Shown here piece by piece: positions 13,464-25,871 of a stretch of DNA of 64,000 bases. The stretch is from the sequence record NC_048196.1; one strand, 5' to 3'. This DNA is from Escherichia phage vB_EcoM_Schickermooser. Position numbers and translations under genes: made by a program. Numbering within the stretch: the stretch's first letter is position 1; each line of letters starts with the position of its first letter. A model generated the notes under the pieces. That model searched no databases and was not told where the DNA came from. It worked only from the letters and a program-made list of their open reading frames with translations.

Positions 13464-13492
13464 AAAAAGCCTACCTCATTAAGTAGGTAGGC
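13464..13492 (-). terminator. hairpin plus T-run (minus orientation)
   Basis: 8-bp stem GCCTACCT/AGGTAGGC followed by TTTTT on minus strand. Confidence 0.4.
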
Positions 13493-14460: not shown

Positions 14461-15186
14461 TTACTTATTAATAATACCTGCAATATTAGGTTTGACAAAG
14501 GTCGATGGTTTCATGATCTTACCTTTATCATCAAAGAACACATACACTTTCTGTTTTTCATTATAAACAGCATGAACACCAGTGTATGCCCCTTCTGGAC
14601 GATTGGCATTTCGTTCTTCAATTGCAGCGCATTCTTGTGCAATGGCTGAATCGATATCCGAAGTTTTCCAAGTTTTCAGCAACTGTTGTTTAGTTGGATA
14701 CTTGGAATCATTACTTTTCAATACCTCTTTAATAACTTTCTTTTCTGGATATTTTGAACGGATTAGAGTGTCACGAGACATACGCATAATACCAGCAGCC
14801 ATTAGTGCCATTTGAACTGGCTCTGTAAATGTTTGTTCCAAAGCATCAAAATCAGTATACACAGTTGGAGTAAAAACATCGCCTACAGCATAGTCCAAGA
14901 AATTCATCGTATGTTCTTCACCAAAGAACATGTAGGTCAGATAACTGGATACTACAAAAATATCCGCTGCTGCATCCAAGAGTTCTACATGATCGTTTAC
15001 TTTCGCGGCTGTTTCATACTCTTTAAGCTCTTCACGAACGAATCCGATTTGGGACATAAATAGCTCTTGAGTGAATTCAGGTTGTTCACCACCTCGTGCT
15101 TTAGCATTCCAATCAATCACGTGCTTCGCTGCATTTTTGAAAAATTCAGTATCGAACTTAATATCTTTAAAAAAATTCTCGATCAT
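14461..15186 (-). CDS. MazG-like nucleotide pyrophosphohydrolase (tentative)
   Basis: FVREELKEYETA...ELLDAAADIF resembles MazG EExxE...D motif. Confidence 0.35.
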   Translation of the reverse strand: MIENFFKDIKFDTEFFKNAAKHVIDWNAKARGGEQPEFTQELFMSQIGFVREELKEYETAAKVNDHVELLDAAADIFVVSSYLTYMFFGEEHTMNFLDYAVGDVFTPTVYTDFDALEQTFTEPVQMALMAAGIMRMSRDTLIRSKYPEKKVIKEVLKSNDSKYPTKQQLLKTWKTSDIDSAIAQECAAIEERNANRPEGAYTGVHAVYNEKQKVYVFFDDKGKIMKPSTFVKPNIAGIINK

Positions 15187-15578: not shown

Positions 15579-16694
15579 TTACTCTGCTGGTTCCCAAGTG
15601 CCTGGGATCATTTCTCGAATACGAACACCAACAGGTTTTGTTGGAATACCTTCATCTGAAAATTCTTCATACTCTATTTCAACGAACTGATTAATCAAGG
15701 TAGAAGCATTCTCTGCTTTACGATAATTGATAGTCTCATGAGCATCTTTACGCATTAAGAATTCGACTACTTTACCATTTTCCATCTCACCTGTCAACAC
15801 TCCATCGCCATTTTTATCGCTTTTTGAATTTGTTACTTTAACTTCAAGGGTGTGGCGAGGCTTACGTTTAATAACGTCATAAGAACGTTTATCAAATTCG
15901 TAAACTCCGTGAGCATTACGATATACTACACCTTCAGCTTTCTCAAGTAAAGCTTTTTCATAGAAAGCGTCAAACTGCTCTTGGTTTTCAATATACTCTG
16001 TATGAACTACACAAATAAGCTCGTCAAGACCATAATCTTCAACTACTGCCTTAAGAGCAGCAAGAGCATCAACACGTTTTTCAAACGGTAGACCTGGAAC
16101 TGGAATATCGTATACGTAATAATTCAGCAAAGGTGTATTTGCATTATGCTTCTTCCAAGCACTGTTAATTTGTTGCAGACTAAGGACACCTAACCCAGCA
16201 AACACTTCACCATCAAGAGGATGACCAACAACTTCACTAATAAAGTTTGGAATACCTTTCCAATGAGGTGGCAGGTTATACACTTCCCCAGCTTTTGATA
16301 AACACTCCCCTTTCATGTTAATCATAGAACGTAACCCGTTCAGTTTGTATTGTGCATAACCAGGGAACACAACCCTTTCAGGATAATCTTTATAATCCTG
16401 GCATTTCATTGGTGTGGAAGGAACATGGTTTTCAGCTTCTTCTTTTGTTTTATAATAGCCATTCTTTAACTGTTTTGTCCATTTGGCAAAAGCTTCAAGT
16501 TCAGCTTGTTCTTCCGGTGTTGTTTCATTGGAACGACCAATGTTTTTTGCTTCTGCTGTATAAGATTTTTCTGTGATCTTTCCACCTACTCTTCCATGAG
16601 CTACAGTAACAACTGCACCATCTGTATATACTGTCCACTGTTTAAGTTTTCCTTTTGAATCTTTACCATACAGCGTTTGATTTGTTTGTTGCAT
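15579..16694 (-). CDS. ATP-dependent DNA ligase
   Basis: 371 aa; motif I K-L-N-G-L-R at 16329..16346; N-terminal region typical of phage ligases; TAATG coupling with upstream ORF. Confidence 0.65.
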   Translation of the reverse strand: MQQTNQTLYGKDSKGKLKQWTVYTDGAVVTVAHGRVGGKITEKSYTAEAKNIGRSNETTPEEQAELEAFAKWTKQLKNGYYKTKEEAENHVPSTPMKCQDYKDYPERVVFPGYAQYKLNGLRSMINMKGECLSKAGEVYNLPPHWKGIPNFISEVVGHPLDGEVFAGLGVLSLQQINSAWKKHNANTPLLNYYVYDIPVPGLPFEKRVDALAALKAVVEDYGLDELICVVHTEYIENQEQFDAFYEKALLEKAEGVVYRNAHGVYEFDKRSYDVIKRKPRHTLEVKVTNSKSDKNGDGVLTGEMENGKVVEFLMRKDAHETINYRKAENASTLINQFVEIEYEEFSDEGIPTKPVGVRIREMIPGTWEPAE

Positions 16695-16915
16695 TAGTCC
16701 TCCCATTTAAAAACTGAAATTTTCAATCTGTTACACACTTCATCCAAATCTGCGTCGAGTAACGTTGTAGATGTTGCCAACATATAATCAATGCTTGTGA
16801 AACCTTGCCCTTTGGCATAGTCAAGCATATCTTCATACATATCTTCAAGATCACCGTCATCAAAAGTAGCTAGAAAATCCTCTTCTCCGCTACGAACATA
16901 AAATGCAGTACTCAT
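16694..16915 (-). CDS. hypothetical acidic protein (73 aa)
   Basis: Track ORF. Confidence 0.4.
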   Translation of the reverse strand: MSTAFYVRSGEEDFLATFDDGDLEDMYEDMLDYAKGQGFTSIDYMLATSTTLLDADLDEVCNRLKISVFKWED

Positions 16916-17103
16916 TCTTCTTCATCCCAAGATTCAAAAGCACAACAATCATCGGTTTCTATAATACCAACACGTCCGCAGGTATTGCAAGTGATTTTAT
17001 CCCCGTAGAATAAATAATTTTTATCACCCTCTGTGTTTACAGTTATGTCATTACTACCACAAGGGCAAGTCAGCCAACCAACAACAACGATATCTTTTTT
17101 CAT
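16912..17103 (-). CDS. small zinc-ribbon protein (63 aa)
   Basis: CPCGS...CNTCGR. Confidence 0.4.
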   Translation of the reverse strand: MKKDIVVVGWLTCPCGSNDITVNTEGDKNYLFYGDKITCNTCGRVGIIETDDCCAFESWDEEE

Positions 17104-17112
17104 AATCCCTCC

Positions 17113-17439
17113 TTAAGCGTTCAGTTCGTTGTTGAGTTCGTAAATCTCTTCTTGAAGAGCATCAATCTCTTCCTCCAAACGGGAGATCTCTTCTTTTAGA
17201 TATACCATTTCGGATTCTTTCTCTTCTAATTCATTTTCAAATTTTACTTTATTAGCCTCATTTTCATAATGCAGTTCAGCGTAATCATCACGCATTTGTT
17301 CAATAAGATGAATCAGAGACAAGATATAATTGTCTCCCGTTTCATCACGCCACTCTTCACCGTGACGGAGAACGGTAATTCGTCCAGTATCTTCATCTAA
17401 AATTGTCTCATATTTACGATCATCTGTATAAATCTGCAT
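17113..17439 (-). CDS. coiled-coil protein (108 aa)
   Basis: Heptad-rich EEISRLEEEIDALQEEIYELNNEL. Confidence 0.45.
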   Translation of the reverse strand: MQIYTDDRKYETILDEDTGRITVLRHGEEWRDETGDNYILSLIHLIEQMRDDYAELHYENEANKVKFENELEEKESEMVYLKEEISRLEEEIDALQEEIYELNNELNA

Positions 17440-17448
17440 TATTTCTCC

Positions 17449-17853
17449 TTATTGAAGTTTAAGTGAACCACGAAGACGTTTCTCTTGCTGATCACGGATA
17501 TATTGTGGAACCTCGTGAATTGAATCATTACCGTGCCTATTTTCAACAATTAAAGAGATAACTTGATAACCAAACTCTTCAGCAAGAGCTAGATAAGGTT
17601 TAAGTTCTTTCTCTGTGGTTGAAGTATTAGAAACAATAATCTTGTTAAGATTAGATGCCATAGCATCACGAACAATACCCTGACACCATGCGTGTGCTTT
17701 ACCTACATTTTCTGGCTTCCAATCGTAAACACCACTCTCTGTGTAATGATATTGATCTGCCTCACAGATAGGCCAATAACCTTCAGAAATAATTTCTGCT
17801 ACTGTAGATTTACCAGCACCTGAAACGCCACGTAAAATGATAAGTTGTTTCAT
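17449..17853 (-). CDS. pnk: polynucleotide 5'-kinase (T4 Pnk kinase-domain-like)
   Basis: Walker A GVSGAGKST; resembles T4 Pnk N-terminal domain; adjacent to RNA ligase. Confidence 0.6.
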   Translation of the reverse strand: MKQLIILRGVSGAGKSTVAEIISEGYWPICEADQYHYTESGVYDWKPENVGKAHAWCQGIVRDAMASNLNKIIVSNTSTTEKELKPYLALAEEFGYQVISLIVENRHGNDSIHEVPQYIRDQQEKRLRGSLKLQ

Positions 17854-18786
17854 TTATCCTCCAAAAAAGTTTTCGATTTTTTCACGTCGCTCTTGCTGAT
17901 TTAAAGCAGCCCATTGAGTCTTCGTAAAATTATTTCGAATCCATTCTAACAAAGCGTAATATTCTTCGTCAACCATTTGTTTGGCATTTTTTGGATTATC
18001 CCAAATCAGATCCCACTTTTTATCTCCACCGCGCATAAGAAACTTCTTAGTAAGATAGTGTGGTGATTTAATTTTTAAAAGTAAGTTGAACGGATAGTTT
18101 GTTTCACGAACTACAAACCCTTCGTGTTTACAATGTTTAGACATTTCAACAACATCTGAAAACTTAACCATTGGATGAACTTCAGGACGCTTAAATTTGG
18201 TGACAGAAGCAATTCCATCAAGAGCACCTTCAGGTAACATAAAACTTGTCCCATCAGGATTTTGAATTCTGGCACCAATTAAGTATGCACCTGGTTCTTC
18301 TTCGACAATATGCGGATCAGAAGGATCACAGATTTCAAAAAGGAAAGTTGCTTTTGCACTCTCTGTCCATTTGATGAAATGTTCTATGTCATCACACTCT
18401 GAAACAATACGATTCTTTGCAATACTTGCAAAATCTGATTCAAGGCTTCCTGTTGTCGATACAATAAGTTGACCTTTATATACACCTACAGAGGCCATAA
18501 AACCATTTACTTTACGAACCACATCTACAAGTTCATCCAATGGTAGATCTGTGCCATTCTCAAAACGATTAAAAATCTTAGTGAAAGGCCAAATAACAAC
18601 ATTGTCATCAGCATCAACAACGATTCCGCGACATTCTAGAAGACGAGAATCAATGCTCCATAAGTTATCCCAGAAAACTTTGTTCTTATACTTAAGAACA
18701 GATAGACCAGAATACTCTCCTTCTTTATATGTTTTCTTATGAACTAAACCTTTTTCAACCAAATCGTCGCAATTAAATTTAGTCAC
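17854..18786 (-). CDS. RNA ligase, Rnl1 (T4 RnlA)-like
   Basis: LLECRGIVVDADDNVVIWPFTKIFN and motif I KVNGFM resemble T4 RnlA ALECRGIMFE...KEDGSL. Confidence 0.6.
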   Translation of the reverse strand: MTKFNCDDLVEKGLVHKKTYKEGEYSGLSVLKYKNKVFWDNLWSIDSRLLECRGIVVDADDNVVIWPFTKIFNRFENGTDLPLDELVDVVRKVNGFMASVGVYKGQLIVSTTGSLESDFASIAKNRIVSECDDIEHFIKWTESAKATFLFEICDPSDPHIVEEEPGAYLIGARIQNPDGTSFMLPEGALDGIASVTKFKRPEVHPMVKFSDVVEMSKHCKHEGFVVRETNYPFNLLLKIKSPHYLTKKFLMRGGDKKWDLIWDNPKNAKQMVDEEYYALLEWIRNNFTKTQWAALNQQERREKIENFFGG

Positions 18787-18787
18787 A

Positions 18788-19339
18788 TTACTCTCCTTTG
18801 ATTATTTTGTGATGGTCTACAGTCACGATATCTCGTTTACTCATCATAGAAATTATCTCATCAAAATGCAAGATTTTTCCGTGTGCATCCCAACCCACAT
18901 CTAACATTTTACCATAAGCTTCATCAGGGAAAGATCCGTGGGAATGCCCGTGTAGCATGATTGATCCACGACCTTGTTTATTCCAGGAGGCCATAGGGTA
19001 ATGACTTAAGACGAAGAACAGCTTCTGATATTTCACTTCGTCATAATACACCACTTCCCCATACTCTGCAAGCACTTCTCGGTGTTTGCTGTAGTCATGG
19101 TTCCCAACACAGTAGGTGATATCTCCTTGGAGACGAGAAGCAATTTTACGGGTATCTTCTTCAGTTCCGAAACAGAAGTCGCCCAAATGCCACATCTTAA
19201 CACCAGGAGTAGTAGCACATTTGTTCCATGCTTCGATCAAGGCTTCTGTCATGTGGTCCATATCTTCCCACGGACGATATTCAGGAGCAAACTCTCGAAT
19301 ACGTTTATGCATAAAATGCAAATCGCTTGTAATAAACAT
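18788..19339 (-). CDS. calcineurin-like metallophosphoesterase
   Basis: GDF...GNHDY...GHSHG metallophosphatase motifs. Confidence 0.6.
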   Translation of the reverse strand: MFITSDLHFMHKRIREFAPEYRPWEDMDHMTEALIEAWNKCATTPGVKMWHLGDFCFGTEEDTRKIASRLQGDITYCVGNHDYSKHREVLAEYGEVVYYDEVKYQKLFFVLSHYPMASWNKQGRGSIMLHGHSHGSFPDEAYGKMLDVGWDAHGKILHFDEIISMMSKRDIVTVDHHKIIKGE

Positions 19340-19695
19340 TAGTATAATCCCTCGCTAAATAATTCATGGTCGTGACCATTACGCTCATGGTCGATCTGGT
19401 CAGCATTTTCCGCGATGATGTAAGCATCCGCACGACTCCACCAATTGTAATACTGATCGATAAAGCCTTGATTATCTGGTGTGCACAAAGTTTTGTTGAT
19501 TACACCTGCTTCTTTCAACACGTTTAACTGTGCATATAGTACAGGATTTGCATGTCGAACACAAGGAATAATTAACTCTTCACCATTATTCAAAATATAC
19601 TTATTTGCAGCACAGACGATAACACGTTGCGCATAATGACCCTCACCCATCCAGGTAAGAGGTTGGTAACAAATATTGTTTTCAATACCACTCAT
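19339..19695 (-). CDS. hypothetical protein (118 aa)
   Basis: Track ORF. Confidence 0.45.
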   Translation of the reverse strand: MSGIENNICYQPLTWMGEGHYAQRVIVCAANKYILNNGEELIIPCVRHANPVLYAQLNVLKEAGVINKTLCTPDNQGFIDQYYNWWSRADAYIIAENADQIDHERNGHDHELFSEGLY

Positions 19696-19854
19696 TGTTT
19701 CCTAATCCTCCTCTCTTAAGTTATCCTCGAAAAAACTAGTGTCTGGAAGTAAAAGATCATTACTTGTGTCGGGCCAATCCTCTTCTTCTCGGTAGATAAA
19801 GTAACCTTCGTCCTCTTCTTGTTCCGACCAAACCGAATGATGCATGTTCTCTCC

Positions 19855-20199
19855 TTAGTAGTGCACACGAATCATTTTAATACCATAACGCAGCATAGAT
19901 TCTTTTGCAAGCATGAATTTATCCCCAGCGGCGGGATTAGAAGTATGCACGAAAATGGTGGGTGAACCAAAGCAAGGTTTACCAAACGCCAGAAGTTCTT
20001 CCAGGTACAGGAAAACATCATACCCATCTTGGTCTGACTCCATACCTAAATCATTGTCAAAAGACCACTCGGTTACTCTTCGATACAGTTTAGCAGGATC
20101 GTTGAGAAAGGCCATAGCTTCTTGTGACGTTTTAAACCAAATTGCATCCTCCTGTCCATAGTCGGCTGGGTTCCGCATATCATCTATCCAAACTTTCAT
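19855..20199 (-). CDS. hypothetical protein (114 aa)
   Basis: Track ORF. Confidence 0.45.
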   Translation of the reverse strand: MKVWIDDMRNPADYGQEDAIWFKTSQEAMAFLNDPAKLYRRVTEWSFDNDLGMESDQDGYDVFLYLEELLAFGKPCFGSPTIFVHTSNPAAGDKFMLAKESMLRYGIKMIRVHY

Positions 20200-23946: not shown

Positions 23947-24021
23947 GGCCCTGTAGCTCAATGGGAGAGCTGTCGGCTCATAACCGATAGGTAGCTGGAT
24001 CGAAACCAGCCAGGGCCACCA
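23947..24021 (+). tRNA. tRNA-Met or Ile2 (anticodon CAT)
   Basis: Cloverleaf folded by hand; anticodon loop CTCATAA; encoded CCA. Confidence 0.8.
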
Positions 24022-24023
24022 AA

Positions 24024-24098
24024 GTCTTTATGGTGTAATGGATAGCACAGGAGTCTTCTAAACTCTTAGTCAAGGTTCGATTCCTTGTAAAGACACCA
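24024..24098 (+). tRNA. tRNA-Arg (TCT)
   Basis: 7-bp acceptor stem, loop CTTCTAA, T-loop TTCGATT, encoded CCA. Confidence 0.8.
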
Positions 24099-24294
24099 GA
24101 ACATTTTAACATGAATTAGCTCAAGTGATTTGAACCCACTACTGATCATGGTGGCAGAGAATGAGGCAAGTATGTCAGACATTATAAACAAAGGCCACGG
24201 TTATATTAGAAGACATAAATGCTCGAAGAGCACCGTTCGTGGAGAACGGGGGTTGGTGGAGTCACCATTCATGGTAAAATGTTTTAAAAAACTA

Positions 24295-24324
24295 TTGACA
24301 ACAAGTATTATTTTATGTTAGATT
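24295..24324 (+). promoter_or_regulatory. sigma70-like promoter, copy 2 of AACTATTGACAA family
   Basis: TTGACA-18nt-TAGATT. Confidence 0.45.
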
Positions 24325-24332
24325 ATAAGTAT

Positions 24333-24423
24333 GGAAGGGCAAATCGACGTGGCGACGAAAACGGTCTTGAAAACCGCCGAGCTTTAAAGAGCCTTGGGAG
24401 TTCGACTCTCCCTCCTTCCGCCA
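24333..24423 (+). tRNA. tRNA-Ser (TGA), long variable arm
   Basis: Loop CTTGAAA, long extra arm, discriminator G, CCA. Confidence 0.7.
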
Positions 24424-24428
24424 GGTTA

Positions 24429-24514
24429 GGTAGATTGGTGAAATGGTAGCCACGACAGTTTGCTAAACTGTAGTCGGAAACGGCGTGTAGGTTCGAGTCC
24501 TACATCTACCGCCA
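24429..24514 (+). tRNA. tRNA-Ser (GCT), long variable arm
   Basis: Stem ACAGT/ACTGT, loop TTGCTAA, long extra arm, G73, CCA. Confidence 0.75.
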
Positions 24515-24644
24515 AGTTCTTTTTAATGTAGCTTACTTTAATAGAGTAAACTTTCGGCAAATGGCCCCCACCATCTTACCGATAACTCATAGTTAGTGGT
24601 GCGAACACTGGCTATTTTAAAAAGAATTTAAATACTAGCATTTA

Positions 24645-24732
24645 GGTGAGTTAATTCCGTAGGGGTAGCGGGGCAGACTGTAAATCTGTTATCATTGCGA
24701 TTCGGGTGGTTCGACTCCATCACTCACCACCA
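24645..24732 (+). tRNA. tRNA-Tyr (GTA), long variable arm
   Basis: Anticodon arm GCAGA-CTGTAAA-TCTGT closely matches E. coli tRNA-Tyr; A73, CCA. Confidence 0.7.
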
Positions 24733-24738
24733 AATTAA

Positions 24739-24824
24739 GATGAGTTGGCTGAATGGTTTAAGCGGCGGACTGTTAATCCGTGTTCGAAAGAACGATATAG
24801 GTTCAAATCCTATACTCATCGCCA
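24739..24824 (+). tRNA. long-variable-arm tRNA with Asn-type anticodon arm (GTT)
   Basis: Acceptor GATGAGT/ACTCATC, 3-bp D-stem, anticodon arm GCGGA-CTGTTAA-TCCGT, 15-nt extra arm with GTTC-GAAA-GAAC hairpin, G73, CCA. Confidence 0.55.
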
Positions 24825-24831
24825 GAATTAT

Positions 24832-24910
24832 GGACTTGTAGAGTTAAGGTAAACCCCCCAGTCGCCAAGAGGCTTCTGGAATTGCAGGTATCGAATCCTG
24901 CCGAGTCCCA
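24832..24910 (+). ncRNA. tRNA-like element with degenerate D and anticodon arms
   Basis: Acceptor GGACTTG/CGAGTCC and T-arm-like hairpin present; no canonical anticodon arm. Confidence 0.25.
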
Positions 24911-24915
24911 GCTTT

Positions 24916-24990
24916 GCTCCTATAGTATAATGGCTATTACAACGGTTTTGTAATCCGTGGATCTCTGTTCGATTCAGAGTGGGAGCACCA
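24916..24990 (+). tRNA. tRNA-Thr (TGT)
   Basis: Loop TTTGTAA, T-loop TTCGATT, CCA; one mismatch closing anticodon stem. Confidence 0.7.
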
Positions 24991-25263
24991 ACACAACATT
25001 AAGGGCACTGTGATTGATCGTCGTATCCTGTGCACAAGGTCTGTTCGAAAGACAGTGTTCTTAGTATTGTGTTGATCACAAAAAGAGTTACCTGAAACTT
25101 GACCGGAGTAGGGTTGGATGGGGCAAAAGAAGAAGCGGCTCTCCCATCGACAGCAACGAAGAATAATATTTGACTTTGGTTTTGTATTATTTTAAGTTAG
25201 CTTACCGAACGTAGGGCTAGTCACCCAATGGGATACTCGTCACTGTCCCACTCAATAAAACTA

Positions 25264-25293
25264 TTGACAACCAATAGTAAAATGTAGTATAGT
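25264..25293 (+). promoter_or_regulatory. sigma70-like promoter, copy 3 of AACTATTGACAA family
   Basis: TTGACA-18nt-TATAGT. Confidence 0.55.
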
Positions 25294-25304
25294 AAAGATG
25301 TAGG

Positions 25305-25378
25305 GCGTTCTTGGTGTAGCGGTAGCATTCCGTCCTTCCAAGTCGGCGGCACGAGTTCGATCCTCGTAGAACGCTCCA
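25305..25378 (+). tRNA. tRNA-Gly (TCC)
   Basis: Loop CTTCCAA, T-arm ACGAGTTCGATCCTCGT, discriminator T, CCA; layout like E. coli tRNA-Gly. Confidence 0.75.
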
Positions 25379-25476
25379 AATTATTTAATAAAGGGTTGCC
25401 AGAAAACTTTCTCTTTTACTCATGGTTTTCTCCTTCTCTCACACCTCTTCTGGTTGCCCTTCATTAAATGATTTAT

Positions 25477-25552
25477 TGGTTTGTAGTGTAGTCAGGTAGC
25501 ACACGACACTTTGACTGTCGTAGGTTTGGTTCAAATCCAGACAGACCAGCCA
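25477..25552 (+). tRNA. tRNA-Gln (TTG)
   Basis: Stem CGACA/TGTCG, loop CTTTGAC, CCA. Confidence 0.7.
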
Positions 25553-25557
25553 TATAA

Positions 25558-25634
25558 CGGAATTTAGCTCAGTTTGGTAGAGCATACGCTTTGGGAGCGT
25601 AGGGTCGCAGGTTCGAATCCTGCAATTCCGACCA
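25558..25634 (+). tRNA. tRNA-Pro (TGG)
   Basis: D-arm GCTCAGTTTGGTAGAGC, loop TTTGGGA, CCA. Confidence 0.8.
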
Positions 25635-25640
25635 ATTTAA

Positions 25641-25714
25641 TGTTTCGTAGTTCAATGGTAGAACCCACGACTGATAATCGTGAGACACAAGTTCGATTCT
25701 TGTCGAAACAACCA
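25641..25714 (+). tRNA. tRNA-Ile (GAT)
   Basis: Stem CACGA/TCGTG, loop CTGATAA, CCA. Confidence 0.75.
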
Positions 25715-25716
25715 AT

Positions 25717-25790
25717 TTCCCGTTAGACTTACAGGATAAGAGTTCCACAGCTTATTGTGATGCTGGTTCGAATCCAGCACGGGATACATA
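25717..25790 (+). ncRNA. tRNA-like element with non-canonical anticodon arm
   Basis: Acceptor, D and T arms (GCTGG-TTCGAAT-CCAGC) present; anticodon region folds only as CACAG-CTTA-TTGTG hairpin; no encoded CCA. Confidence 0.3.
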
Positions 25791-25792
25791 AT

Positions 25793-25871
25793 AGCGGGAT
25801 AGAGGAGTCTGGTCGTCCTCGCCAGTTTCATATGCTGGAGATCATCGGTTCAAATCCGATTCCCGCCTCCA
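25793..25871 (+). tRNA. tRNA-Met or Ile2 (anticodon CAT), second CAT tRNA
   Basis: Loop TTCATAT, T-loop TTCAAAT, CCA; A1-C72 mismatch. Confidence 0.65.

What the first reader, a model, noticed from the sequence alone, without database searches (positions are those of the whole stretch)
17449..19339. Three-gene RNA end-healing and sealing module beside a 12-tRNA array
Adjacent co-oriented genes encode a metallophosphoesterase, an Rnl1-like RNA ligase and a Pnk-like kinase, the three activities needed to repair tRNAs cut by host anticodon nucleases. T4 does this with Pnk/Rnl1 and bacterial Pnkp has the same three domains in one protein; here they are separate ORFs. Both the RNA ligase (KVNG) and the nearby DNA ligase (KLNG, 16329-16346) have Asn in motif I where Asp is usual.
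Basis: partly seen in the sequence, partly recalled or inferred. Interest (0 to 1): 0.55.

Follow-up and report, generated by a model that had tools for sequence, protein, structure and literature searches.

The report
Phage RNA break-repair gene module
An E. coli phage carries a tightly packed set of genes (phosphoesterase, RNA ligase, kinase, plus a missed cyclic-phosphate enzyme) that most likely mends RNAs such as tRNAs cut by bacterial defences; the kind of module has been predicted before, but its ligase has an active-site signature like the yeast tRNA-splicing ligase, not like phage T4's.

Summary
Window 17449-19339 (- strand) holds three translationally coupled genes: a binuclear metallophosphoesterase (MPE), an Rnl1-family RNA ligase and a Pnk-related P-loop kinase. 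The window is a Phapecoctavirus (100% identical to E. coli phage vB_EcoM-Ro121c4YLVW).

The RNA end-healing and sealing reading is well supported:
- In 80 distant phage loci the three families stay linked while gene order shuffles.
- Kinase-ligase fusions occur in both orders.
- Bacteria have one-polypeptide kinase-MPE-ligase proteins carrying this ligase type.

It is not new as a kind. Public records annotate the genes, and Iyer et al. 2022 described this neighbourhood (T4-like tRNA ligase, cREC, kinase, MazG, calcineurin-like phosphoesterase, sirtuin) for rV5-like phages.

The module is larger than reported: a cREC gene lies at 19855-20199. Sir2 sits beside the kinase in relatives but about 30 kb away here.

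New here: the ligase belongs to a large, apparently mostly phage-borne clade with a fixed signature. It has KxNG, no motif Ia lysine, a His after motif III, and Lys/Arg after motif V. This resembles the 2'-phosphate-sensing site of fungal Trl1. It suggests, without proving, a yeast-like 2'-PO4 ligation pathway. All enzyme activities are inferred.

The parts
18788..19339 (-). Binuclear metallophosphoesterase (183 aa), aq_1665-like clade. Inferred healer of the RNA 3' end (2',3'-cyclic phosphodiesterase and/or phosphomonoesterase).
   Evidence: Pfam Metallophos and PHROG 547. All metal-ligand motifs are invariant in 191 homologues: D6, H8, D54, N80, H81, H113, H132, H134. Best PDB match is 1xm7, Aquifex aq_1665, of unknown function: E=1e-21 by sequence and Foldseek 7e-9. 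Linked to the ligase in 63 of 80 ligase-anchored loci.
17854..18786 (-). Rnl1-family ATP-dependent RNA ligase (310 aa, GTG start), 'clade A'. Motif I is KVNG, at 18502-18513.
   Evidence: PF09511, E=5.9e-15. Profile against PDB finds T4 Rnl1 at 3.5e-10. AF2 model has pLDDT 89, and the top Foldseek hits are T4 Rnl1 and Trl1-LIG. Invariant residues: R53, K70, F72, K92, N94, G95, E151, E222, G223, K238, K240. The clade signature N94/T112/H159/K248/R252 is shown.
17449..17853 (-). Small P-loop kinase (134 aa) related to polynucleotide 5'-kinases. Inferred RNA 5'-OH kinase.
   Evidence: AAA_33, E=3.5e-10. Profile against PDB finds Pnkp1 4xrp at 1.4e-6, the CthPnkp kinase 4gp7 at 1.6e-5, T4 Pnk at 2e-4 and PSTK. 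The P-loop and the Asp33 general-base equivalent are invariant. Found fused to the ligase in either order.
19855..20199 (-). cREC domain protein (114 aa), a 'cyclic-phosphate processing receiver domain'.
   Evidence: Pfam PF20274 cREC_REC, E=3.9e-17. It is homologous to rV5 ORF83, which lies between the ligase and Sir2 genes. In PVP-SE1-like and Klebsiella-phage relatives it lies between the ligase and kinase genes.
19339..19695 (-). 118-aa protein of unknown function (PHROG 839), translationally coupled to the MPE gene by a TAATG overlap. Whether it belongs to the module is uncertain.
   Evidence: PHROG 839, E=4e-47. No Pfam, NCBIfam or PDB match. Found next to the module only in close relatives plus two other loci.
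14461..15186 (-). MazG-like nucleotide pyrophosphohydrolase (241 aa). Travels with the module in rV5-like phages.
   Evidence: Pfam PRA-PH, E=2.7e-6, and PHROG 671. Homologous to rV5 ORF85. Within 6 kb of the ligase in 12 of 80 loci.
23947..25871 (+). Array of 12 tRNA genes: Met, Arg-UCU, Ser-UGA-like, Ser-GCU, Tyr-GUA, Asn, Thr, Gly, Gln, Pro, Ile, Met/Ile2-CAU. This is thematic context only; it is not in the same operon.
   Evidence: ARAGORN finds 10. Rfam adds 24645-24729 and 24333-24419.
15579..16706 (-). ATP-dependent DNA ligase (375 aa) with motif I KLNGLR (16329-16346). Context only; not part of the RNA module.
   Evidence: PF01068, E=6e-9, and PHROG 114. Aligns to the ASFV DNA ligase 6imj, including its KRNGVR motif I and its N-terminal domain.

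Best explanation
This is a phage RNA end-healing and end-sealing module, expressed as part of a long leftward early/middle gene cluster.

- The kinase (17449-17853) phosphorylates the 5'-OH.
- The MPE (18788-19339), probably together with the neighbouring cREC protein (19855-20199), opens or removes the cyclic phosphate.
- The Rnl1-family ligase (17854-18786) reseals the break through a Lys92-AMP intermediate.

Shown here:
- The family and fold assignments.
- Conservation of all catalytic residues.
- The evolutionary linkage of the three genes: shuffled synteny, two-domain fusions and bacterial three-domain fusions.

Inferred:
- That the substrates are RNA ends.
- That tRNA is the target.
- Which 3'-end chemistry is used.

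Two versions remain open:
1. T4-like. The 3' phosphate is removed completely and a 3'-OH/2'-OH end is sealed.
2. Yeast Trl1-like. The cyclic phosphate is opened to a 2'-PO4, the ligase requires that 2'-PO4, and the phage Sir2 or the host KptA removes it afterwards.

The ligase's active-site signature favours the second version more than a T4 analogy would suggest.
For: Family assignments:
- Ligase. Pfam RNA_lig_T4_1. A profile search finds T4 Rnl1 at 3.5e-10, with all nucleotidyltransferase motifs aligned. The top Foldseek hits are T4 Rnl1 (9do4, 2c5u) and then Trl1-LIG (6n0t, 9qw7, 8rbj).
- Kinase. The best solved relatives are all polynucleotide or tRNA kinases from RNA repair systems: Pnkp1, CthPnkp kinase, T4 Pnk and PSTK.
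- MPE. The full binuclear metal site is invariant in 191 homologues. MPE domains of CthPnkp and lambda phosphatase are proven 2',3'-cyclic phosphodiesterases (PMC2190708).

Linkage:
- Of 80 viral loci anchored on ligase homologues (38-87% identity), 51 carry all three genes within 6 kb.
- Several gene orders occur: M-L-K in 32 loci, K-L-M in 15, L-M-K in 2, and two others.
- Twelve loci carry kinase=ligase fusions.
- Kinase-anchored loci give 22 K+L+M, 24 adjacent K+M pairs and 7 K+L. MPE-anchored loci give 19 K+L+M and 14 L+M.
- Among the 150 best cluster representatives there are 10 kin-lig fusions and 3 lig-kin fusions.
- There are also about 24 proteins of 700-812 aa. The four scanned with Pfam have AAA_33 kinase + Metallophos + this ligase type. 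One lies in a bacterial-looking chromosomal context.

Module context:
- A cREC gene lies two genes upstream.
- In relatives the order is MPE-ligase-cREC-kinase-Sir2.
- This matches the RNA-repair neighbourhood that Iyer et al. 2022 described for rV5-like phages (PMC9503650).
- The genes are translationally coupled.
Against: - No activity has been measured for any member of this ligase clade, this kinase clade or this MPE clade, as far as the held literature shows.
- The kinase lacks the D-x-x-R arginine of T4 Pnk and CthPnk. Position +3 after the catalytic Asp is H, F, W, M or L.
- The MPE's only close solved relative has unknown function. Its weak structural neighbours include nucleases (Mre11, P. 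putida MPE) and LpxH.
- 44 of 80 MPE-anchored loci and 27 of 80 kinase-anchored loci show no partner within 6 kb.
- The ligase lacks the motif Ia lysine (T4 K119) implicated in RNA adenylylation. It is also about 64 aa shorter than T4 Rnl1 at the C-terminal, tRNA-specificity end.
- The module sits among DNA-metabolism genes: DNA ligase, RdgC and exonucleases.
- A nearby tRNA array is not a general feature. Only 15 of 53 related loci have any tRNA or tmRNA gene (13 a tRNA) within 6 kb.
Confidence: 0.75

Rival explanations
1. The same module works by the yeast/plant (Trl1) chemistry rather than the T4 chemistry. MPE and/or cREC open the 2',3'-cyclic phosphate to a 3'-OH/2'-PO4 end. The ligase needs that 2'-PO4 to seal. 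The junction 2'-PO4 is then removed with NAD+ by the phage Sir2 or by host KptA (Tpt1). This is a mechanistic variant of the best explanation, not a different function.
For: - All 127 clade-A ligases in the fetched loci, and 144-150 of the 150 cluster representatives, carry KxNG, His159 eight residues after the motif III Glu, and Lys248/Arg252 at +8/+12 after the motif V Lys.
- The 16 T4-like ligases linked to the same kinase family carry KxDG, Ile, and His/Thr at those positions.
- Two independent alignments place His159 on the Trl1 histidine (Cth His227) and KVNG on KANG.
- In Trl1, Asn150, His227, Arg334 and Arg337 hold the sulfate taken as the 2'-PO4 mimic. The His-Arg-Arg triad enforces the 2'-PO4 requirement. 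These residues were described as unique to the Trl1 clade (PMC6379707; PMC11404444).
- T4 Rnl1 does not ligate 2'-P ends (PMC12440814).
- Sir2 is adjacent to the kinase in relatives and is present in this phage's genome.
- Iyer et al. proposed that the sirtuin acts like KptA.
Against: - The equivalence of K248/R252 to R334/R337 rests on spacing only (+8/+12 against +9/+12). It could not be checked by superposition, because model coordinates are not exposed.
- The signature could instead compensate for the missing motif Ia lysine by giving an alternative 5'-PO4 or ATP gamma-phosphate contact.
- Plant Trl1 needs a 2'-PO4 without these arginines, so the triad is not the only solution.
- The bacterial three-domain fusions pair this ligase with a CthPnkp/lambda-type MPE that may remove both 2' and 3' phosphates.
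- Most distant M-L-K loci show no Sir2 or cREC within 6 kb.
Confidence: 0.33
2. The module processes DNA ends rather than RNA. The kinase and MPE clean 5'-OH and 3'-phosphate DNA nicks or breaks, for example after nuclease attack or during replication and recombination. The ligase seals single-stranded nucleic acid.
For: - The genes sit in a DNA-metabolism cluster with an ATP-dependent DNA ligase, an RdgC-like protein, exonucleases and the DNA polymerase exonuclease subunit.
- T4 Pnkp acts on DNA as well as RNA (established knowledge).
- The weak structural neighbours of the MPE include the DNA nucleases Mre11 and P. putida MPE, and there is a faint NCBIfam hit to PdeM.
Against: - The ligase is clearly in the Rnl1/Trl1 RNA ligase branch. 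DNA ligases score orders of magnitude worse.
- A dedicated DNA ligase is encoded 1.1 kb downstream.
- The associated genes in relatives (cREC, Sir2) are RNA and NAD-ADPr themed.
Confidence: 0.07
3. The three genes are functionally independent neighbours. The MPE degrades nucleotide second messengers or nucleotides. The kinase is a (d)NMP kinase. The ligase serves mainly as a T4 gp63-like tail-fibre attachment factor, as many records annotate it.
For: - Public annotations say 'RNA ligase and tail fiber protein attachment catalyst', 'ATPase' and 'phosphoesterase'.
- Many MPE and kinase homologues occur without a detectable partner within 6 kb.
- The kinase lacks the polynucleotide-kinase arginine.
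Against: - Linkage persists through repeated gene-order changes down to 38% ligase identity.
- Fusions of kinase with ligase occur in both orders, and there are three-domain bacterial fusions.
- All ligase catalytic residues are invariant.
- The tail-fibre annotation is simply transferred from T4 gp63, which belongs to the other clade.
Confidence: 0.05
4. The module serves the phage's own RNA metabolism rather than countering host nucleases. Examples would be maturation or quality control of transcripts from the 12-tRNA array, or repair of collateral damage from phage-encoded RNases.
For: - A 12-tRNA array lies 4.6 kb away.
- rV5 has a similar juxtaposition of a tRNA array and the module.
Against: - The array is on the other strand, in a different transcription unit.
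- Only 15 of 53 related loci have any tRNA or tmRNA gene within 6 kb.
- Normal bacterial tRNA maturation needs no ligation (established knowledge).
Confidence: 0.08

Closest known systems
Sirtuin-centred phage RNA-repair gene neighbourhood 'type 2' of Iyer, Burroughs, Anantharaman and Aravind 2022 (PMC9503650), prototyped by Escherichia phage V5 and Proteus phage Mydo
   Same: It has the same components: T4-like tRNA ligase, cREC, nucleotide kinase, MazG, and an occasional calcineurin-like phosphoesterase. The rV5 ligase is 48% identical to this one. rV5 carries MPE (ORF80), kinase (ORF81), ligase (ORF82), cREC (ORF83), Sir2 (ORF84) and MazG (ORF85) together.
   Different: In this Phapecoctavirus the order is cREC, PHROG-839 protein, MPE, ligase, kinase. 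Sir2 is not adjacent and lies about 30 kb away, outside the window. That description is computational, and it calls the ligase 'T4-like' without noting the Trl1-like site.
Phage T4 tRNA repair: Pnkp (kinase + DxDxT/HAD 3'-phosphatase) and Rnl1 (gp63)
   Same: The logic is the same (heal the 5'-OH, heal the 2',3'-cyclic phosphate, seal) and the ligase superfamily is the same. The equivalents of T4 Rnl1 R54, K75, F77, K99, G102, E159, E227, G228, K240 and K242 are all present.
   Different: - The phosphatase has an unrelated fold (MPE, not HAD) and is a separate protein.
- The kinase is stand-alone and lacks the equivalent of R38.
- In the ligase, D101 is replaced by Asn, K119 by Thr and I167 by His.
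- The ligase has a shorter C-terminal domain.
- It scores 25 bits against the NCBIfam T4 RnlA model, whose cut-off is 242.
Bacterial Pnkp (Clostridium thermocellum Pnkp/Hen1 system): kinase, MPE phosphatase and ligase in one polypeptide
   Same: It combines the same three enzyme classes. The CthPnkp kinase domain is among the best solved relatives of the phage kinase. Its MPE is a proven 2',3'-cyclic phosphodiesterase.
   Different: - Here there are three separate proteins.
- The MPE belongs to the aq_1665-like clade (GDFxFG rather than GDxxDRG).
- The ligase is Rnl1-type. The CthPnkp ligase domain was not among the 50 listed fold matches.
- No Hen1 homologue was recognised in the Pfam/PHROG scans of the flanking ORFs, but no dedicated Hen1 search was run.
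- A separate set of bacterial three-domain proteins does combine a CthPnkp-type kinase and MPE with this ligase clade.
Fungal tRNA ligase Trl1 (LIG-KIN-CPD) with Tpt1
   Same: Motif I is KxNG. A His follows motif III, aligned by two methods. Basic residues follow motif V. The motif IV form is EGFV(V/I)R. The Foldseek score is as good as for T4 Rnl1.
   Different: - The motif Ia lysine (SKHS) is absent.
- The healing enzymes are unrelated (MPE and cREC rather than a 2H CPDase) and are separate proteins.
- The C-terminal domain is shorter.
- A 2'-PO4 requirement is untested.

Membership tests
[quoted passage not shown] | Covalent nucleotidyltransferase motifs I (Lys nucleophile), III, IV and V | tested here: met
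   K92, E151, E222-G223 and K238/K240 are invariant and align to T4 K99, E159, E227-G228 and K240/K242.
[quoted passage not shown] | Rnl1-specific N-terminal sub-domain residues (T4 R54, K75, F77) | tested here: met
   R53, K70 and F72 are invariant and align to them.
[quoted passage not shown] | Fold closest to T4 Rnl1 rather than to DNA ligases or capping enzymes | tested here: met
   Foldseek gives 9do4, 2c5u and 5tt6 at about 3e-12, then Trl1-LIG, then Rnl3. DNA ligases score 2.6e-5 or worse.
[quoted passage not shown] | Motif I KxDG aspartate and motif Ia lysine (T4 D101, K119) | tested here: not met
   Asn94 and Thr112 are fixed in the clade: 127 of 127 loci ligases, and 150 of 150 (Asn) and 140 of 150 (Thr) representatives.
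[quoted passage not shown] | T4-type C-terminal tRNA-specificity domain; equivalog-level similarity to T4 RnlA | tested here: not met
   The protein is 310 aa against 374 aa for T4 Rnl1. The clade-B and T4 C-terminal region has no counterpart. NCBIfam TIGR02308 gives 25 bits against a cut-off of 242.
Trl1-LIG (Rnl6) type 2'-PO4-dependent tRNA ligases | KxNG motif I, with the Asn contacting the catalytic-metal waters and the 2'-PO4 site | tested here: met
   KVNG aligns to KANG of the C. glabrata Trl1. The role of the Asn is described in PMC6379707.
Trl1-LIG (Rnl6) type 2'-PO4-dependent tRNA ligases | His-Arg-Arg triad (His after motif III; two Arg after motif V) | tested here: inconclusive
   His159 aligns to the Trl1 His by HMMER and by hhalign. 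K248 and R252 are invariant at +8 and +12 from the motif V Lys, against +9 and +12 in Trl1, but no structural superposition was possible.
Trl1-LIG (Rnl6) type 2'-PO4-dependent tRNA ligases | Requirement for a 3'-OH/2'-PO4 end; fusion to KIN and 2H-CPD domains | not testable with these tools
   End specificity needs biochemistry. The domain fusion is absent here: the kinase is a separate gene, and MPE and cREC stand in place of a 2H CPDase.
Polynucleotide 5'-OH kinases (T4 Pnk / CthPnk clade of P-loop kinases) | P-loop GxxGxGK(S/T) and the catalytic Asp general base | tested here: met
   G12, G14, K15, S16 and T17 are conserved. D33 is conserved in 164 of 165 homologues and aligns to the D of SSDFCR (CthPnk) and RDDFR (Pnkp1).
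Polynucleotide 5'-OH kinases (T4 Pnk / CthPnk clade of P-loop kinases) | D-x-x-R arginine that binds the 5'-terminal nucleotide | tested here: not met
   Position +3 is H, F, W, M or L and never R in 165 homologues. The bacterial three-domain fusions do have SSDDLR.
Polynucleotide 5'-OH kinases (T4 Pnk / CthPnk clade of P-loop kinases) | Phosphorylation of 5'-OH polynucleotides | not testable with these tools
   The only evidence is context: adjacency and fusion to the RNA ligase.
Binuclear metallophosphoesterases (calcineurin-like) | Motifs DxH, GD, GNH(D/E), H, GH and GHxH | tested here: met
   D6, H8, G53-D54, G79-N80-H81, H113, G131-H132 and H134 are conserved in 189-191 of 191 homologues.
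CthPnkp / lambda phosphatase branch of MPEs (RNA 2',3'-phosphatase or protein phosphatase) | GDxxDRG motif and close fold similarity | tested here: not met
   The motif is GDFCFG. Lambda phosphatase ranks only 35th (E=7e-3), and the CthPnkp phosphatase is not in the top 50. The best match is aq_1665, of unknown function.
Phage RNA-repair neighbourhood of Iyer et al. 2022 (ligase + cREC + kinase + MazG ± calcineurin-like PE + sirtuin) | Co-located ligase, cREC, kinase, MazG and MPE genes | tested here: met
   cREC is at 19855-20199, MPE, ligase and kinase span 17449-19339, and MazG is at 14461-15186.
Phage RNA-repair neighbourhood of Iyer et al. 2022 (ligase + cREC + kinase + MazG ± calcineurin-like PE + sirtuin) | Sirtuin gene in the same neighbourhood | tested here: not met
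   Sir2 lies at NC_052654 104137-104952, about 30 kb away and outside the window. It is adjacent to the kinase in PVP-SE1-like, Klebsiella-phage and rV5 relatives.

The most novel reading that the evidence does not exclude
The phage ligase, together with its large and apparently mostly phage-borne clade, is a Trl1-type enzyme that needs a 2'-phosphate at the 3' end. The module would then be a bacterial-virus version of the fungal/plant tRNA-splicing chemistry:
- a cyclic phosphodiesterase step (MPE and/or cREC);
- a kinase step;
- a 2'-PO4-dependent ligase;
- NAD+-dependent removal of the 2'-phosphate by phage Sir2 or host KptA/Tpt1.

This would be the first such ligase outside eukaryotes. It would also give bacterial Tpt1/KptA, whose role in taxa without a fungal-type ligase is unknown, a natural substrate.
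Probability: 0.3. Interest if true: 0.75.

Novelty: new member of a known kind. Interest (0 to 1): 0.42.

Why it matters
tRNA-cleaving bacterial immune systems (PrrC, RloC, PARIS, retron-Eco7, Cas13 and others) are now seen as widespread. Phage countermeasures other than spare tRNAs are known experimentally only from T4.

This module belongs to a very large ligase family: 678 phage records, and about 470 clusters (at 50% identity) with E<=1e-30. The family is linked to its own kinase and phosphoesterase families, and none of these has been characterised biochemically.

If the Trl1-like active-site signature means what it means in fungi, these phages use a 2'-phosphate-dependent ligation route so far known only from eukaryotic tRNA splicing. 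That would connect phage Sir2 proteins and bacterial KptA/Tpt1 to a defined substrate. It would also supply compact (310 aa) ligases with a new end specificity for RNA biotechnology. If the signature does not mean that, the finding is an ordinary, already-predicted phage RNA-repair cassette.

Tried and rejected
- A single-sequence PDB search with the ligase gave only E=0.027 to T4 Rnl1. A family profile was needed.
- Burroughs and Aravind 2016, the primary catalogue of RNA repair systems, is not in the held library. Searches for 'Phapecoctavirus' or 'phAPEC8' with 'RNA ligase' found nothing.
- The promoter-like sites were no more frequent than in shuffles: 36 against 31±5.5. They were not used. 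Only one convincing - strand terminator (13469-13492) bounds the cluster.
- tRNA proximity was tested as a general feature of the module and rejected. Only 15 of 53 loci have a tRNA or tmRNA gene within 6 kb.
- The bacterial/archaeal genome scan with clade-A patterns returned a single locus, on a 137-kb MAG contig. This suggests that stand-alone clade-A ligases are rare in cellular genomes. However, the patterns were strict, and the three-domain bacterial fusions were found only by the exhaustive HMM search.
- The PHROG-839 protein (19339-19695) could not be assigned by Pfam, NCBIfam or PDB sequence search.
- I considered whether D-x-x-H in the kinase is a fixed variant of D-x-x-R. It is not: the position is simply variable.
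- I considered whether the MPE could be a protein phosphatase or the CthPnkp type. This was rejected by motif and by fold.

Full report
**Identity of the window and the observation**

The region 17000-19800 is 100% identical to Escherichia phage vB_EcoM-Ro121c4YLVW. It is 99% or more identical to many phAPEC8/ESCO13-like phages (Phapecoctavirus, Stephanstirmvirinae).

On the - strand there are three abutting ORFs at exactly the reported coordinates:
- 18788-19339, 183 aa.
- 17854-18786, 310 aa, GTG start.
- 17449-17853, 134 aa.

The junctions read GGAGAG-TAA-T-GTG, GGAGGA-TAA-ATG and TAATG, so the genes are translationally coupled.

Pfam and PHROG assign them as follows:
- Calcineurin-like metallophosphoesterase (PHROG 547).
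- RNA_lig_T4_1 (E=5.9e-15; PHROG 562).
- AAA_33 P-loop kinase (E=3.5e-10; a weaker hit to the PHROG polynucleotide kinase).

KVNG lies at 18502-18513. The DNA ligase KLNGLR lies at 16329-16346.

The tRNA count of 12 is right. ARAGORN finds 10. Rfam adds a type-II tRNA-Tyr(GUA) at 24645-24729 and a weaker tRNA-Ser(UGA)-like element at 24333-24419. The array lies 4.6 kb away, on the other strand.

**The ligase**

Sixteen homologues down to 49% identity keep these residues invariant: R53, K70, F72, K92-x-N94-G95, E151, E222-G223 and K238/K240.

A profile of them finds T4 Rnl1 in the PDB at 3.5e-10. Every motif is in register with T4 R54, K75, F77, K99, G102, E159, E227-G228 and K240/K242.

The AlphaFold model has pLDDT 89.4. 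Its matches rank as follows:
- T4 Rnl1 first: 9do4, 2c5u and 5tt6, at about 3e-12.
- Then fungal Trl1-LIG: 6n0t, 9qw7, 8rbj and 6n67.
- Then archaeal Rnl3.
- Rnl2, Rnl5 and DNA ligases follow far behind.

The protein is an Rnl1-superfamily RNA ligase.

It is not a T4 RnlA equivalog. It scores 25 bits against a cut-off of 242, and it lacks about 64 C-terminal residues.

**The kinase**

A profile of 18 homologues finds only polynucleotide or tRNA kinases at the top of the PDB list:
- Capnocytophaga Pnkp1, 1.4e-6.
- The C. thermocellum Pnkp kinase domain, 1.6e-5.
- Fungal stand-alone RNA kinases.
- T4 Pnk, 2e-4.
- PSTK.

The P-loop and Asp33 are invariant. Asp33 aligns to the general-base Asp of CthPnk and Pnkp1. 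The arginine of the D-x-x-R signature is absent: that position is H, F, W, M or L. His54, Cys57 and His113 are invariant and unexplained.

**The phosphoesterase**

All binuclear-metal ligands are invariant in 191 homologues.

The only close solved relative is Aquifex aq_1665 (1xm7), a protein of unknown function. The sequence-profile E-value is 1e-21 and the Foldseek E-value is 7e-9. Mre11, LpxH, MJ0936 and P. putida MPE follow weakly. Lambda phosphatase ranks 35th. The CthPnkp phosphatase is absent from the top 50.

So this is not a protein-phosphatase-type MPE, and the second refutation test also fails. Equally, it is not the Pnkp-type RNA phosphatase. Its role at RNA 3' ends is inferred from context. 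The precedent is that MPE domains can be 2',3'-cyclic phosphodiesterases (PMC2190708).

**Is it a module?**

This was the main test.

*Ligase-anchored loci.* Eighty viral-contig loci were anchored on ligase homologues (38-87% identity). They were scanned with HMMs of the three families.
- 51 loci have all three genes within 6 kb.
- The gene orders are M-L-K (32), K-L-M (15), L-M-K (2) and two others.
- 12 loci have kinase and ligase fused in one ORF of about 420-430 aa.
- 12 loci have M+L only, and 3 have K+L only.

*Reverse anchoring*.
- Of 80 kinase-anchored loci, 22 are K+L+M, 24 are adjacent K+M pairs and 7 are K+L.
- Of 80 MPE-anchored loci, 19 are K+L+M and 14 are L+M.
- Many MPE-anchored loci (44) and kinase-anchored loci (27) have no partner in range.

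*Exhaustive profile search*.
- The search covered 1.84 billion cluster representatives.
- It gave 6850 hits: 2520 at E<=1e-10 and 471 at E<=1e-30.
- Among the best 150 are 10 kinase-ligase fusions and 3 ligase-kinase fusions.
- There are also about 24 proteins of 700-812 aa.
- The four of these scanned with Pfam have the architecture AAA_33 kinase, Metallophos, then this ligase type.
- In the one inspected by eye (P0438), the kinase has D-x-x-R and the MPE has GDxxDRG, which is the CthPnkp type.
- That protein lies among RecJ, TilS and RuvA genes in a bacterial MAG.

Shuffled synteny plus fusions in all combinations is strong evidence that the three activities act in one pathway. The partners point to nucleic-acid end healing and sealing.

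**The module is bigger than reported, and is already described**

The ORF at 19855-20199 is a cREC domain protein, a 'cyclic-phosphate processing receiver domain' (PF20274, E=3.9e-17). A MazG-like gene lies at 14461-15186.

Gene orders in relatives:
- rV5 (ligase 48% identical): tRNA array ... MPE, kinase <> ligase, cREC, Sir2, MazG ... DNA ligase.
- PVP-SE1-like and Klebsiella phages: MPE, ligase, cREC, kinase, Sir2 ... MazG.
- This phage and phi92-like phages: cREC, PHROG-839 protein, MPE, ligase, kinase ... MazG.

In this phage Sir2 lies about 30 kb away, outside the window.

Iyer et al. [quoted passage not shown] They propose that the sirtuin removes 2'-phosphates as KptA does (PMC9503650). 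Iyer et al. 2021 state that calcineurin-like phosphatases occasionally supply the phosphatase step in phage RNA repair. A 2025 Pakpunavirus paper notes the adjacent kinase and ligase as tRNA repair genes that lack a 3'-phosphatase domain.

Many GenBank records already name the three genes. The finding is therefore a member of a predicted, published kind. No biochemical study of any of these three protein clades was found.

**What is new: the ligase signature**

Aligning all 143 Rnl1-like ligases in the fetched loci splits them cleanly into two groups.

| Feature | Clade A (127, including the window) | T4-like clade B (16, linked to the same kinase family) |
|---|---|---|
| Motif I | KxNG | KxDG |
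| Motif Ia | S-T-T-G, no basic residue | [AS][ST][RK]G |
| After motif III | D-P-His159 | N-R-I |
| After motif V | Lys248 and Arg252 | H and T |

The signature holds in 140-150 of the 150 clade-A cluster representatives, including the bacterial fusions.

Comparison with fungal Trl1:
- In Trl1-LIG motif I is KxNG.
- Asn150, His227 (after motif III) and Arg334/Arg337 (after motif V) hold the sulfate taken to mimic the RNA 2'-PO4.
- These residues were said to be unique to the Trl1 clade (PMC6379707).
- Mutating the His-Arg-Arg triad slows RNA adenylylation 60- to 580-fold (PMC11404444).
- T4 Rnl1 does not join 2'-phosphate ends (PMC12440814).
- A broad profile aligns the C. glabrata Trl1-LIG (9qw7, 4.5e-12) with KANG on K-x-N-G and its His on the His159 column.
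- hhalign of the clade-A alignment gives the same His match.
- The Lys248/Arg252 equivalence (+8/+12 against +9/+12) rests on spacing only.

Taken with cREC and Sir2, this fits a Trl1-like pathway: the cyclic phosphate is opened to a 2'-PO4, ligation depends on that 2'-PO4, and the 2'-PO4 is then removed with NAD+.

An alternative reading is that the correlated changes compensate for the missing motif Ia lysine. I put the Trl1-like reading at about 0.3.

**Motif I Asn in the DNA ligase**

KLNGLR aligns to KRNGVR of the ASFV DNA ligase (6imj). That ligase also matches the phage enzyme's N-terminal domain. Asn in motif I therefore has a solved precedent in both ligases. It is a clade signature rather than an anomaly.

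**Context checks**

- Promoter-like sites are not enriched. Only one good - strand terminator (13469-13492) closes the cluster.
- tRNA or tmRNA genes lie within 6 kb of the ligase in only 15 of 53 related loci. The tRNA array is a thematic neighbour, not a mechanistic one.
- A strict-pattern scan of 185,579 species genomes found a single stand-alone clade-A ligase locus, on a 137-kb MAG contig.

**Verdict**

As a kind of system it is already known from comparative genomics, and its genes are annotated in public records. It is experimentally untouched.

It differs from T4 and from bacterial Pnkp in every component: an aq_1665-type MPE, a kinase without the substrate arginine, and a compact ligase with a Trl1-like site.

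The most interesting open point is the 3'-end chemistry. A simple ligation assay would settle it.

Noticed in passing
window 17854-18786; NC_052654.1 73224-73868: In the RefSeq record of the very phage the window matches, the RNA ligase gene is annotated only from an internal ATG (645 nt, 'hypothetical protein'). This loses the first 96 residues, including the motif I lysine. Other records (ESCO13) annotate the full 933-nt GTG-start gene.
   Followed up: partly
window 24333-24419 and 24645-24729: Two long-variable-arm tRNA-like genes, Ser-UGA-like and Tyr-GUA. They are missed by ARAGORN and absent from the two RefSeq records inspected (ESCO13 NC_047770 and Ro121c4YLVW NC_052654). rV5 annotates Ser-UCA and Tyr tRNAs at the corresponding place. 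tRNA-Tyr is the target of retron-Eco7.
   Followed up: partly
window 15579-16706: The phage ATP-dependent DNA ligase aligns to the ASFV DNA ligase over its N-terminal domain as well as its catalytic core, and shares its KxNGxR motif I.
   Followed up: partly
window 17449-17853: In the kinase family, His54, Cys57 and His113 are invariant in about 155-164 of 165 homologues. The canonical polynucleotide-kinase arginine is missing. This could be a metal or substrate site specific to this clade.
   Followed up: no
window 19339-19695: A 118-aa PHROG-839 protein is translationally coupled to the MPE gene. It has no detectable family. It recurs beside the module in L061 and beside a kinase in L233.
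   Followed up: partly
P0438 / L246 8001-10304, and about 24 similar proteins: Proteins of 700-812 aa that end in the clade-A ligase domain. Four of those scanned with Pfam combine an AAA_33 kinase, a Metallophos domain and the ligase domain. In P0438 the kinase and MPE carry CthPnkp-type motifs (SSDDLR, GDLIDRG). This is a three-domain repair enzyme distinct from classical Pnkp. P0438 is flanked by a HEAT-like gene and a DUF2201 gene in a bacterial-looking contig.
   Followed up: partly
L043 5569-6834 and 8518-9597; L047 and L056: Loci with the kinase=ligase fusion lack the aq_1665-type MPE. L043 also carries an Rnl2-type RNA ligase (PF09414), a GIY-YIG protein and a PRPP-synthetase-like gene nearby. 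L047 and L056 carry phage tmRNA genes within 6 kb.
   Followed up: no
public records MG065650.1 and MG065644.1: Records named 'Campylobacter phage B15/A147' (host C. jejuni) are 99.9% identical to this E. coli phage group, or carry an rV5-type ligase. The host labels may be wrong.
   Followed up: no
window 17113-17439: The 108-aa acidic coiled-coil protein just downstream of the kinase is annotated 'hol-like chemotaxis' in RefSeq. Only generic coiled-coil Pfam hits support any assignment, so the name looks like an annotation artefact.
   Followed up: no
NC_052654.1 97705-98214 and 104137-104952 (outside the window): The same phage genome also encodes a lambda NinI-like Ser/Thr phosphatase (a second MPE, of the lambda type) and the Sir2 protein that is adjacent to the repair module in related phages.
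   Followed up: partly
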